Assembly (NCBI GenBank): GCA_048621635.1
Contig: JBMCWH010000003.1
Coordinates: 1 to 63,760 of the forward strand
Length of the DNA: 63,760 nucleotides
Direction: 5' to 3'
Source of the DNA: Patescibacteria group bacterium
GTDB taxonomy: Bacteria > Patescibacteriota > WWE3 > JAUXAW01 > JAYEID01
Made by a program: the position numbers and the translations under genes. The notes under the pieces are model-generated. The model had not been told where the DNA came from. It saw nothing but the letters and a program-made list of their open reading frames with translations, and did no database searches. This document shows positions 60,305 through 61,944 of this stretch, one piece after another. How positions within the stretch are numbered: the stretch's first letter is position 1; each line of letters begins with the position of its first letter.

Positions 60305-61944
60305 ATTTTCGAGAGTTTGATCCTGGCTCAGGGCAAACGCTGGCGGCGTGCATAAGGTATGCAAGTCGAATGGCCTTGTGCACAGCACAAGGGCACTAAT
60401 CAACGCGAATGGTAGCTCACTCCGCCCCGCTCAGCGGGGCTGCGTTTCGCACGCGAAAATACGCGAAGTAAAAATTAGCGTAGATTTGCGTAGCGAGCGT
60501 TAGCGAGCTTCTGATTAGCGTAAATTTGTGTCCTCGCGCTGTGCGCGAGGTTCATGGCGGACGGGTGCGTAACGCGTGGGAACCTACCCCCGAGAGGTGA
60601 ATACCCCCGGGAAACCGGGGATAATACACCGTATTAGTTCCGACTTTGTCGGAAGAAAGGTAAAGTTTATCTTTGCCGCTCAGGGATGGGCCCGCGTCCT
60701 ATCAGCTAGTTGGTAGGGTAATGGCCTACCAAGGCGATGACGGGTAGGGGATGTGAGAGCATGTACCCCCACAATGGCACTGAAACACGGGCCATACTCC
60801 TACGGGAGGCAGCAATCAGGAATCTTGCGCAATGGACGAAAGTCTGACGCAGCGACGCCGCGTGGAGGATGAAGGCCTTCGGGTTGTAAACTCCTGTTAA
60901 AAAGTCACGGCAAACTACGTGCCAGCAGCAGCGGTCAAACGTAGGTGGCAAGCGTTGCCCGGCGTTATTGGGCGTAAAGGGTGTGTAGGCGTTTTGTTAA
61001 GTTCTCAGTGAAAACCCTCCGCTTAACGGAGGACGGGCTGGGAATACTGGCAAAATAGAGGTAAGTAGAGGAAAGCGGAATTTCGGGAGGAGGGGTGAAA
61101 TCCTATGATCTCCGAGAGAACACCAAAGGCGAAGGCAGCTTTCTGGGCTTTACCTGACGCTGAGGCACGAAAGCGTGGGTAGCCAAAGGGATTAGATACC
61201 CCTGCAGTCCACGCCCTAAACGATGCTCGCTGAATGTTGGTCCCGATTTTATCGGGATCAGTGTTGAAGCTAACGCGTTAAGCGAGCCGCCTGGGAATTA
61301 CGGTCGCAAGGCTAAAACTCAAAGGAATTGGCGGGGACCCGCACAAGCGGTGGAGCGTGTGGTTTAATTCGATGATAACCGAAGAATCTTACCAAGGCTT
61401 GACATTCCGGTGACCGCCTCTGAAAGGAGGCTTTCCTTCGGGACAGCGGAAACAGGTGTTGCATGGCTGTCGTCAGCTCGAGTTGTGAAATGTATGGTTA
61501 AGTCCCATATCGAGCGAAACCCTTGCGCTGTGTTAGAATCTCGACCTTGCGTCGAGCATGATGTCACAGCGGACTGCCTCGGAAACGGGGAGGAAGGTGA
61601 GGATGACGTCAAGTCAGTATTGCCCTTATGCCTTGGGCGACACACGCGCTACAATGGCTGGTACAATGAGCGGCGACTTCGTAAGAAGGAGCAAATCTCT
61701 AAAGCCAGTCCCAGTTCGGATTGGGGTCTGAAACTCGACCCTATGAAGTCGGAATCGCTAGTAATCGCCGGTCAGCCATACGGCGGTGAATACGTTCTCG
61801 GGTCTTGCACACACCGCCCGTCAATTGGGGAAAGTTGGAAGCACCCGAATTCTCGCTTAGCGGGAATAAGGTGAGTCCAGCAATCAACAATAAGTCGTAA
61901 CAAGGTGTCCGTAGGGGAATCTGCGGACGGATCACCTCCTTTCT
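60305..61944 (+). rRNA. rrs: 16S rRNA gene (about 1640 nt including a 177-nt V1 insertion)
   Basis: AGAGTTTGATCCTGGCTCAG at 60312; ACTCCTACGGGAGGCAGCA; GGATTAGATACCC; TGCACACACCGCCCGTCA; 3' end GGATCACCTCCTTTCT. The ends are placed to within a few nt. Confidence 0.93.
60374..60550 (+). repeat. ORF-less insertion element in 16S helix 6 (copy 1)
   Basis: Lies between GCAAGTCGAATGG and TTCATGGCGGACGGGTG. It starts with the hairpin CCTTGTGC-acag-CACAAGG and ends with the hairpin CCTCGCGC-tgtg-CGCGAGG. It is about 90% identical to 63315-63470 apart from one 21-nt indel. Confidence 0.85.

What the first reader, a model, noticed from the sequence alone, without database searches (positions are those of the whole stretch)
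60374..60550. 177-nt ORF-less insertion with hairpin termini in 16S helix 6 (V1)
Between the conserved GCAAGTCGAA and GGCGGACGGGTG blocks, helix 6 is normally about 40 nt. Here it is about 180 nt. The extra sequence begins with an 8-bp stem and tetraloop (CCTTGTGC-acag-CACAAGG) and ends with another (CCTCGCGC-tgtg-CGCGAGG). The two ends are therefore imperfect terminal inverted repeats (CCTYGYGC...GCRCRAGG). The interior is built from short repeated words (ACGCGAA x3, ATTAGCGTA[GA]ATTTG x2, GCGTTAGCGAG). It is too short and too simple to be a group I or II intron and it encodes no homing endonuclease, unlike most insertions described in CPR 16S genes. It looks more like an RNase III-excised intervening sequence or a miniature mobile element.
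Basis: partly seen in the sequence, partly recalled or inferred. Interest (0 to 1): 0.8.

Follow-up and report, generated by a model that had tools for sequence, protein, structure and literature searches.

The report
Repeated rod-shaped insert in rRNA genes
The 177-base extra piece in the 16S rRNA gene is real, has a near-identical twin in the neighbouring 23S gene, and belongs to a widespread, apparently undescribed family of hairpin-rod inserts with identical 19-base ends that sit at many helix tips of rRNA operons of candidate-phyla-radiation bacteria and are most likely cut out of the ribosomal RNA.

Summary
Observation confirmed: 16S helix 6 carries a 177-nt ORF-less insert at 60374-60550, and an independent assembly has it too.

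New findings:
- A second copy (156 nt, about 92% identical apart from a 21-nt indel) sits in the 23S gene at 63315-63470. A 'solo' 19-nt cap sits at 63255-63273.
- The two 'terminal hairpins' are really the two strands of one 19-bp, nearly two-fold-symmetric basal duplex. Their three central bases covary in 59 of 60 cells. It closes a rod of about 60-68 predicted base pairs (z about -7.2).
- The same end sequences (CCUUGUsC-nnn-GsACAAGG ... CCUCGCsC-nnn-GsGCGAGG) bound variable, short-repeat interiors in 69 metagenome loci. These map to at least 11 positions: 16S h6 and h17, 23S H15, H25, H45, H63 and others, the 23S ends, and a group I intron. All mapped copies are in rRNA sense, and none lies outside rrn operons.
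- The host 16S genes are only 73-75% identical to the window's.
- A sibling genome has an empty h6.

Best reading: an intervening-sequence-like rod, removed from pre-rRNA by a double-strand-specific, probably dimeric, RNase (RNase III type). It has spread among helix tips. Excision itself is untested.

Rivals: retained expansion segment; DNA-level miniature transposon; cut-and-religated.

The parts
60374..60550 (+). Copy 1 of the rod element, at the tip of 16S helix 6 (E. coli about 69/101)
   Evidence: Rfam SSU alignment with 158 extra nt in the h6 loop. Pattern match. Single-rod fold, -98.5 kcal/mol, z -7.2. Flanks map to rrs 69 and 103.
60374..60392 (+). 5' strand of the conserved basal box (CCUUGUGC-ACA-GCACAAGG)
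   Evidence: Identical fixed positions in L001, L003 and 69 metagenome loci. Pairs with 60532-60550.
60532..60550 (+). 3' strand of the basal box (CCUCGCGC-UGU-GCGCGAGG)
   Evidence: Same calls as the 5' strand. The central triplet UGU is complementary to ACA of the 5' strand. This triplet pair covaries across the family.
60424..60445 (+). Small side hairpin (GCCCCGC-UCA-GCGGGGC) present only in the 16S copy
   Evidence: A 21-nt gap in the alignment of the two copies. Forms a side stem in the fold.
63315..63470 (+). Copy 2 of the rod element, in the 23S hairpin at E. coli about 270-290 (helix 15 by the standard numbering, named from memory)
   Evidence: Direct repeats D1 and D5. Alignment. blastn finds no further copy in the window. 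Rfam LSU alignment with 139 extra nt at model position about 283. Fold -82.4 kcal/mol, z -7.25.
63255..63273 (+). Solo 19-nt cap hairpin UCUCGUGC-GGA-GCACGAGA in 23S (E. coli about 227-233), at the site where L003 carries a full rod
   Evidence: Fifth match of the generalised palindrome. L003 rod at 15388-15552 maps to the same site.
60305..61942 (+). 16S rRNA gene, host of copy 1
   Evidence: Rfam RF00177, 1371 bits.
63034..63760 (+). 5' part of the 23S rRNA gene, host of copy 2 and of the solo cap; cut by the window end
   Evidence: Rfam RF02541, 452 bits, truncated at the 3' end.
60275..60299 (+). 5' arm of the ordinary 16S leader-trailer processing stem. It pairs with 62111-62135 and has no similarity to the basal box.
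   Evidence: Inverted repeat I2, 25 nt, 96% complementary.
62111..62135 (+). 3' arm of the 16S leader-trailer processing stem
   Evidence: Inverted repeat I2.

Best explanation
The segment is one copy of a multi-copy, non-coding element that lives only in rRNA operons of candidate-phyla-radiation (Patescibacteria) bacteria.

In the pre-rRNA its two 19-nt ends pair with each other. They form a conserved, nearly two-fold-symmetric basal duplex with U.G pairs at positions 4 and 6, often also at 10, and A.C mismatches at 14 and 16. The interior zips into a long irregular rod of about 60-68 predicted base pairs, so the element simply prolongs helix 6 (shown).

The outer 8 bp of the box take the place of the normal distal h6 stem (shown).

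I infer that the rod behaves as an intervening sequence. A double-strand-specific endonuclease that works as a dimer cuts in or at the basal box. RNase III is the default candidate, and a sequence-selective Mini-III-like enzyme is an alternative. The rod is discarded, and the mature 16S (and 23S) is left either nicked and held together by the 8-bp cap plus the host helix, or resealed into a short cap hairpin.

Copies have spread between helix tips of the same operon and are gained and lost between related genomes (shown as a pattern). The mechanism is not known. Template switching or gene conversion between the shared cap sequences is the simplest proposal (inferred).
For: - Insert position and size.
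- Second copy in 23S and no other copy in the window.
- Rod folds with z about -7.2 for both copies.
- Compensatory changes between the two window copies and L001 at 5 pairs.
- Family-wide covariation of the three central pairs of the box: 59/60 cells paired, with 6, 5 and 3 pair types, and 0/500 shuffles reach the score.
- Variants that change the outermost box positions keep the inter-end pairs but break the local hairpins (L048, L067).
- The sense strand folds better than the antisense strand in 38 of 41 unique elements, mean -71.4 against -60.8 kcal/mol.
- 69 metagenome loci carry the same ends. They map to 16S h6 and h17, to 23S at about 227, H15, H25, H45, about 1350, H63 and about 2815, and to the 23S 5' and 3' boundaries. 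All mapped copies are in sense orientation.
- 227 box modules lie inside rrn spans and 4 outside, in about 275 kb each. Those 4 lie in one group I intron.
- The termini are identical although the 16S genes are only 73-75% identical.
- The sibling L003 has an empty, cap-like h6 and rods at other sites, including the classical IVS sites H25 and H45.
- Literature: IVSs are 100-200-nt extra stems excised by RNase III (PMC8708148).
- Literature: CPR rRNA genes hold many short ORF-less non-intron inserts. They are judged 'probably' RNase III IVSs, and CPR inserts are reported as removed from transcripts (PMC11270868).
Against: - No RNA data were available, so excision is not shown for this family.
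- The window's own 16S processing stem (60275-60299 with 62111-62135) has no similarity to the box. Ordinary RNase III does not need such a sequence, which leaves the deep conservation of the box unexplained by RNase III alone.
- In L046 a normal leader-trailer stem exists beside the 'pre-23S' rod, so the rod is not needed for end maturation.
- Copies inside a group I intron and in spacers show that the element is not tied to any role in the mature ribosome. They fit a selfish spreader as well as a processing signal.
- No RNase III or Mini-III gene lies in the 60 kb examined.
- The conserved positions of the 69 loci were imposed by the search pattern. Only the window, L001 and L003 give an unbiased view of end conservation.
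Confidence: 0.58

Rival explanations
1. Retained expansion segment. The rods stay in the mature 16S and 23S as long protruding helices, like eukaryotic expansion segments. They grow by compensatory slippage of short repeats, and the box is a binding site for a dimeric protein on the ribosome.
For: - The sites are surface-exposed variable helix tips.
- The arms are period-7 tandem words on both sides, the signature of compensatory slippage.
- The structure is kept by compensatory changes.
Against: - Copies lie in places that never reach the mature ribosome: the 23S leader and trailer boundaries and a group I intron.
- Interiors are hypervariable between genomes.
- The literature reports that CPR inserts are removed from transcripts (PMC11270868).
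- Up to 5 or more rods per 23S would add roughly 1 kb to otherwise reduced ribosomes.
Confidence: 0.17
2. DNA-level miniature transposon. The two end palindromes are hairpins recognised on single-stranded DNA by a trans-encoded transposase (IS200/IS605 or REP-RAYT style), or they are TIRs of a MITE. On this view the rod fold only makes the insert harmless.
For: - The ends are conserved while the interiors vary.
- Presence and absence differ between siblings.
- Near-identical copies sit at different sites of one genome.
- Each end is a perfect palindrome at positions 2-18.
- A chimeric contig formed through identical copies (L037).
Against: - No target-site duplication and no conserved target sequence.
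- No copy outside rrn operons in about 275 kb of flanks plus 59 kb of the window, and none in IMG/VR viral contigs.
- Only the sense orientation is seen.
- The loop triplets of the two ends covary with each other, with U.G pairs. Hairpin recognition does not require this.
- Outer-position variants break the hairpins but keep the inter-end pairs.
- No ORF-bearing version with the same ends was found in the loci.
- No transposase lies nearby. The one integrase-family gene, at 36183-37082, is XerC/D-like.
Confidence: 0.1
3. True splicing. The rod is cut at both strands of the box and the rRNA is religated by an RNA ligase, regenerating a short cap hairpin like the solo cap at 63255-63273. The mature rRNA would then be continuous.
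For: - Solo caps of the form X-loop-Y' sit at sites that carry rods in relatives: window 63255-63273 against L003 15388-15552, and the h6 tip of L003.
- A LigT/ThpR-type 2H phosphoesterase is encoded at 46585-47133.
Against: - Solo caps are DNA-level states and say nothing direct about RNA ligation.
- Classical bacterial IVSs are not religated (PMC8708148).
- No RtcB or splicing endonuclease was seen in the part of the genome available.
- There is no bulge-helix-bulge motif in the box.
Confidence: 0.12
4. Assembly chimera or lineage-typical long helix 6 without paralogues.
For: Repeats of this family do cause chimeric contigs elsewhere (L037).
Against: - An independent Logan assembly is 100% identical through the insert. 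A 97% relative has the identical 23S copy.
- The two window copies differ at about 8% of positions and by a 21-nt indel, each with consistent rRNA flanks.
- A paralogue exists, and a sibling genome has a short h6.
Confidence: 0.01

Closest known systems
Bacterial rRNA intervening sequences (IVSs) excised by RNase III: Salmonella, Yersinia and Campylobacter 23S helices 25 and 45; 16S IVSs of Helicobacter canis and Campylobacter helveticus
   Same: - A 100-200-nt ORF-less extra stem at the tip of a variable rRNA helix.
- Sporadic presence and absence among relatives.
- Relatives of this element occupy exactly the classical H25 and H45 sites.
- It forms long dsRNA suitable for RNase III.
   Different: - One sequence family occupies at least 11 sites in both 16S and 23S, plus spacer boundaries and an intron.
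- It has a strictly conserved 19-bp pseudo-symmetric basal box with fixed U.G and A.C positions, across hosts whose 16S genes are only about 74% identical.
- The interiors are period-7 repeats.
- Excision and fragmentation are not demonstrated here.
Short, ORF-less, non-intron 'insertion sequences' of CPR rRNA genes (Brown et al. 2015; Tsurumaki et al. 2024, PMC11270868)
   Same: Same organisms, the same size class (<200-250 bp), and the same preferred positions at the tops of stem-loops. The published view is that they are probably RNase III-type IVSs.
   Different: Those surveys classed them as 'uncharacterised'. In the text I could read there is no mention of shared end sequences, of the same element in 16S and 23S, of the rod and box structure, or of solo caps.
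Eukaryotic and archaeal rRNA expansion segments that grow by compensatory slippage
   Same: Helix-tip location. Arms are built of complementary short tandem repeats. The structure is kept by compensatory change.
   Different: Expansion segments are retained and site-specific. They have no shared end box and do not occur in spacers or introns.
Hairpin-ended non-autonomous DNA elements (IS200/IS605-derived PATEs; REP/BIME pairs)
   Same: Two related but non-identical palindromes in inverted arrangement at the two ends. Non-coding and multi-copy.
   Different: Those are extragenic, genome-wide and found in both orientations, and they depend on a Y1 transposase. Here copies are rrn-only and sense-only, the ends pair with each other, and no transposase was found.

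Membership tests
RNase III-excised rRNA intervening sequence (IVS) | Extra sequence inside an rRNA gene, at the tip of a helix, relative to the bacterial consensus | tested here: met
   Rfam alignments: 158 nt extra in the h6 loop and 139 nt extra in the 23S hairpin at model position about 283.
RNase III-excised rRNA intervening sequence (IVS) | Folds into an additional long stem (dsRNA); 100-200 nt (PMC8708148) | tested here: met
   177 and 156 nt. Single rods, z -7.2. Covariation.
RNase III-excised rRNA intervening sequence (IVS) | Absent from mature rRNA; rRNA fragmented at the site | not testable with these tools
   No RNA reads available. There is only the general literature statement that CPR inserts are removed from transcripts.
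RNase III-excised rRNA intervening sequence (IVS) | Cleaved by RNase III | not testable with these tools
   No enzyme assay is possible. No rnc gene lies in the 60 kb of the window scanned.
Group I / group II intron | Matches the catalytic-core covariance model; several hundred nt; often a homing endonuclease ORF | tested here: not met
   No Rfam hit at the gathering threshold or at E<=1. 177 nt. No ORF.
MITE / classical TIR transposon | Terminal inverted repeats | tested here: met
   The 19-nt ends are inverted repeats differing by 4-5 transitions.
MITE / classical TIR transposon | Target-site duplication; copies scattered in the genome in both orientations | tested here: not met
   No direct repeat at the flanks. 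227 of 231 modules lie inside rrn spans and the other 4 in an rrn-linked intron. All mapped copies are in sense orientation.
IS200/IS605-type hairpin-ended element (PATE) / REP-BIME | End hairpins are the functional structures; Y1 transposase or RAYT in the genome; extragenic distribution | tested here: not met
   Outer-position variants break the hairpins but keep the inter-end pairs. Loop-loop covariation. Distribution is rrn-only. The transposase could not be assessed genome-wide.
Retained rRNA expansion segment | Present in mature rRNA and in the ribosome | not testable with these tools
   No RNA or structure data. Family members in leaders, trailers and an intron argue against this as the general role.
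Archaeal-type bulge-helix-bulge intron | Two 3-nt bulges separated by a 4-bp helix at the exon-intron junctions | tested here: not met
   The box is a continuous 19-bp duplex with mismatches but no bulges.

The most novel reading that the evidence does not exclude
The 19-bp pseudo-palindromic box, with its fixed U.G and A.C positions, is the recognition site of a dedicated, sequence-selective, homodimeric dsRNA endonuclease of CPR bacteria: a 'restriction-like' RNase of the Mini-III type. The rods would then be a self-spreading processing cassette that colonises any tolerated helix tip of rrn transcripts. Many CPR ribosomes would therefore be built from multiply fragmented, or cut-and-resealed, 16S and 23S rRNA.
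Probability: 0.22. Interest if true: 0.85.

Novelty: new variant of a known kind. Interest (0 to 1): 0.62.

Why it matters
CPR bacteria make up a large share of bacterial diversity, and their rRNA genes are known to be riddled with inserts. The short ORF-less ones have been left as 'uncharacterised'. This work shows that many of them are one structured family with the following properties:
- a sequence-defined basal box conserved across phylum-level distances;
- presence in both 16S and 23S and at the classical IVS sites;
- restriction to rrn transcripts in sense orientation.

That turns a vague category into a testable system. It raises four questions: which nuclease reads the box, whether CPR ribosomes are built from many rRNA pieces, how a non-coding rod copies itself between helix tips, and why the U.G/A.C asymmetry is kept.

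There are practical consequences too. The box gives a simple signature for masking these inserts in 16S and 23S surveys. It also flags assembly chimeras, because identical copies do join unrelated rRNA segments (L037).

Tried and rejected
1. Local-hairpin model of the ends. It is 100% paired, but only because the search pattern fixed those positions. It was rejected as the main structure because the loop triplets covary between the ends and because outer-position variants break the hairpins. A cruciform is only about 7 kcal/mol worse than the rod, so it may exist transiently.
2. Other copies in the window: none by blastn.
3. A 20-mer from the interior against GTDB genomes gave L001, a true homologue, and L002, a Verrucomicrobiales MAG with a 22-nt match and nothing beyond it, taken as chance.
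5. Viral contigs: two scans, no hits.
6. ORF-bearing 'autonomous' versions with the same ends: only cross-element pairs that span rRNA were found.
7. Looking for RNA-derived contigs through spurious ORFs inside the 16S. One ORF was not on record. The other gave a DNA-like contig that still contains the 23S copy.
8. RNase III or Mini-III in the window: none among the ORFs of 130 aa or more at 46-47133.
9. Literature search for the motif strings: only irrelevant hits. Brown et al. 2015 is not held in the library.
10. One Rfam call on 12 loci failed internally and was repeated on 7 loci.
11. The idea that the 'pre-23S' rods replace the leader-trailer stem was rejected for L046, where a normal stem is present.
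Full report
**1. What is at the coordinates**

The window ends in an rRNA operon:
- 16S at 60305-61942
- tRNA-Ile(GAU) at 62247-62323
- tRNA-Ala at 62682-62758
- 23S from 63034 to the window end

Neighbouring genes and rRNA features mark a Patescibacteria/CPR genome. The upstream MnmA has its best named relatives in the 'Patescibacteria group', at 58-59% identity or less. Rfam's bacterial SSU model aligns the whole 16S but leaves 158 bases unaligned in the loop of helix 6. 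It treats the outer CCUUGUGC / GCGCGAGG as the distal h6 stem.

It has no ORF of 60 aa or more. Nothing in Rfam matches it, even at E<=1.

A Logan assembly of run SRR21542050 is 100% identical from 56917 to 60727, so the insert is not an assembly chimera.

**2. It is not unique: a twin in the 23S gene and a solo cap**

Repeat finding and blastn show a second copy at 63315-63470, in the same orientation. It is about 92% identical, apart from a 21-nt side hairpin found only in the 16S copy. There are no further copies in the 63.7 kb.

Rfam places this second copy (139 extra nt) at the tip of the 23S hairpin at model position about 283, which is E. coli about 270-290. By the standard numbering this is helix 15; I name it from memory.

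A 97%-identical relative from another run (SRR29060558) has an identical 23S copy.

A generalised 17-nt palindrome (CTYGYSC-nnn-GSRCRAG) occurs five times in the window against 0.01 expected. Four hits are the ends of the two copies. The fifth is a solo hairpin, UCUCGUGC-GGA-GCACGAGA, at 63255-63273 in the 23S, at E. coli about 227-233.

**3. Structure**

Each copy folds as a single long rod: -98.5 and -82.4 kcal/mol with flanks, z -7.2 in both cases, and 0 of 200 shuffles fold as well.

In that fold the 5' end (CCUUGUGC ACA GCACAAGG) pairs with the 3' end (CCUCGCGC UGU GCGCGAGG). The alternative, two local hairpins plus the interior rod (a cruciform), is about 7 kcal/mol worse.

The two window copies and the L001 homologue differ by compensatory changes at five pairs, including interior pairs that switch between G-C and A-U.

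**4. Relatives**

- **L001.** A 20-mer from the interior found this GTDB MAG contig. It carries MnmA at 58% identity. A homologous 177-nt element sits in h6 with the same ends.
- **L003.** MnmA synteny led to GCA_034659915.1, whose 16S is 86% identical to the window's. Its h6 is short (GCUCGACC-UUC-GGGUCGAGC, cap-like). Its 23S carries rods at E. coli about 229, at H15, H25 and H45, and at about 1854-1885. These rods have quite different AU-rich interiors but the same ends: CCUUGUCC-nnn-GGACAAGG ... CCUCGCCC-nnn-GGGCGAGG.
- **Metagenome scan.** A scan for the two end modules 110-140 nt apart returned 69 loci, mostly from groundwater.

Mapping the flanks on E. coli rRNA placed the elements as follows:

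| Site | Copies |
|---|---|
| 16S h6 | 14, including the window |
| 16S h17 | 2 |
| 23S about 227 | 1 |
| 23S H15 | 8, including the window |
| 23S H25 | 3 |
| 23S H45 | 15 |
| 23S about 1350 | 2 |
| 23S H63 | 20 |
| 23S about 2815-2833 | 3 |
| 0-17 nt upstream of 23S position 1 | 7 |
| At the 23S 3' end, 34 nt before 5S | 1 |

- Further copies lie in or beside group I introns (L023, and probably L019).
- Every mapped copy is in rRNA sense.
- In about 279 kb of rrn spans there are 227 box modules. In about 275 kb of flanking DNA there are 4, all in the L016/L023 intron.
- Viral contigs have none.
- The 16S genes of these hosts are only 73-75% identical to the window's.

**5. The ends are one duplex, not two hairpins**

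The search pattern left five positions free in each module. Among 20 distinct end pairs, the three central bases of the 5' module pair with those of the 3' module in 59 of 60 cells. The three pairs show 6, 5 and 3 different pair types. The covariation score is 0.257 against 0.058 for shuffles (0/500 reach it), and it collapses when the partner column is slid.

Elements found with relaxed matching change the outermost positions in ways that keep the inter-end pair (U-A, G-C, G.U) but break the local hairpin (L048, L067). So the rod is the selected structure.

The duplex is nearly two-fold symmetric. Positions 7/13 and 8/12 change in all four places together. Five transition-type non-Watson-Crick pairs are fixed:
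- U.G at positions 4 and 6, and usually at 10, on the rRNA-proximal side;
- A.C at positions 14 and 16 on the distal side.

Other short inserts in the same loci have different boxes built on the same logic, for example CCUGUUC-UUC-GAACAGG ... CCCGCUC-GGA-GAGCGGG.

G.U pairs make the fold strand-specific. The sense strand is more stable than the antisense strand in 38 of 41 unique elements. The structure is therefore selected at the RNA level.

**6. Interiors**

Most interiors are arrays of 7-nt words on both arms. An example is (AAUUUCU)n on one arm against (UUUUGGA)n on the other. The window, L001 and L010 type uses ACGCGAA and UUAGCGU words instead.

Interiors differ greatly between genomes but are nearly identical between sites of one genome:
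- window h6 against H15;
- L003 about 229 against H15;
- L032 H25 against about 1350;
- L063 H45 against H63.

This points to intragenomic copying or gene conversion. One metagenome contig (L037) is a chimera joined through such copies.

**7. Caps and empty sites**

The outer 8 bp of the box (X:Y') occupy the place of the normal distal stem of the host helix. At sites without a rod, a 19-nt solo hairpin of the form X-loop-Y' can be found. Examples are window 63255-63273, where L003 has a rod, and the h6 tip of L003, where the window has a rod. Rods therefore behave as insertions into the loop of a conserved cap, with gain and loss between relatives.

**8. How it most likely works**

*Shown:* the rod-plus-box RNA structure; the restriction to rrn transcripts in sense orientation; the multi-site family; the deep conservation of the box; presence/absence polymorphism.

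*Inferred:* the rod is removed from the pre-rRNA by a dsRNA-specific endonuclease. The reasons are:
- Size, shape and sites match classical IVSs, which are 100-200-nt extra stems cut by RNase III (PMC8708148). Relatives occupy H25 and H45.
- Family members sit in leaders, trailers and an intron, so the family has no obligatory role in mature ribosomes.
- Tsurumaki et al. judge the short CPR inserts to be probably RNase III IVSs, and cite Brown et al. for removal of CPR inserts from transcripts.
- The pseudo-dyad symmetry of the box suits a homodimeric enzyme.

The U.G-containing proximal half would keep the two rRNA pieces together after a central cut. The A.C-weakened half would leave with the rod.

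*Caveats:*
- The window's ordinary 16S processing stem looks nothing like the box.
- L046 keeps a normal leader-trailer stem next to its rod.
- Generic RNase III therefore does not explain why the box is so conserved.
- A sequence-selective Mini-III-like RNase is possible. From memory, B. subtilis Mini-III prefers ACC^U, and NCCU/AGGN lies at the foot of the box. A DNA-level recognition is also possible. Both are untested.
- The way copies spread is unknown. Template switching between shared caps would need no dedicated enzyme, and RNA-level selection would then explain the sense-only orientation.

**9. Comparison with the known**

It works like a bacterial IVS, and it belongs to the 'short uncharacterised insertion sequences' already counted in CPR rRNA genes (PMC11270868).

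As far as I could check, the following are not described:
- the shared 19-bp box;
- the same element in 16S and 23S and at about a dozen sites;
- the solo caps;
- the period-7 rods;
- the rrn-only, sense-only distribution.

It is not a group I or II intron, not a bulge-helix-bulge intron, not a classical MITE, and not a REP- or IS200-type element (see the membership table).

**10. Verdict**

- Novelty: a new variant of a known kind.
- Interest is moderate to high. A sequence-defined, deeply conserved dsRNA box shared by many rRNA helix tips makes two open questions directly testable: which enzyme reads it, and whether CPR ribosomes are built from fragmented rRNA.

Noticed in passing
window 62323-62445, 62758-62880 and 33127-33380: A structured repeat of about 120 nt (83% identity between the two spacer copies) directly follows each spacer tRNA (Ile-GAU, Ala-UGC). 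A third, longer relative follows tRNA-Ile(UAU). It has no Rfam match and seems to be a tRNA-trailer element of unknown role.
   Followed up: partly
L001 about 765-880 (minus strand): Upstream of the 16S of this relative, the first 25 nt of the gene (AGTTTGATCCTAGCTCAGGGCGAAC) are duplicated around an 88-nt insert. The GCCGGCAGG...GGCTGGCGAA part of that insert resembles the window's tRNA-trailer repeat. It looks like an insertion with a long target duplication.
   Followed up: no
L037 (whole contig, 1430 nt): A metagenome contig joins the 5' flank of 23S H25 to the 3' flank of the site at about 1376, through identical rod elements. This is an assembly chimera caused by the repeat family.
   Followed up: partly
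L023 2875-3309 (also L016): A group I intron-like RNA lies about 1 kb downstream of the 16S 3' end, in the spacer before the tRNAs. It carries a rod element (3100-3267) in one of its helices.
   Followed up: partly
L046 (reverse strand) 7040-7134 with 11300-11440: The rod that abuts the 23S 5' end sits at the junction between an ordinary long leader-trailer processing stem and helix 1, forming a three-way junction.
   Followed up: partly
window 46585-47133: Gene for a LigT/ThpR-type 2H phosphoesterase (RNA 2',3'-cyclic phosphodiesterase / 2'-5' ligase family). It is common in bacteria, and no link to the rods is shown.
   Followed up: no
L002 2790-2811 (Verrucomicrobiales MAG): A 22-nt exact match to the element interior (AAGGGCACTAATCAACGCGAAT) lies in an intergenic spot after a pseudouridine-synthase-like gene. 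There is no similarity beyond it. About one chance hit is expected for a 20-mer in this collection.
   Followed up: partly
window 60889-60900 (16S) and L003 12682-13532, 18437-19216: The window's 16S lacks about 47 nt of helix 17 relative to the bacterial model. The sibling L003 has an 849-nt insert in 16S (E. coli about 1080) and a 778-nt insert in 23S (about 2593). These are the intron-type inserts typical of CPR.
   Followed up: no
window 27055-29606 (minus strand): Two adjacent genes encode cohesin-domain proteins, and the longer one also has a dockerin domain. This is unusual surface-assembly machinery for a small CPR genome.
   Followed up: no
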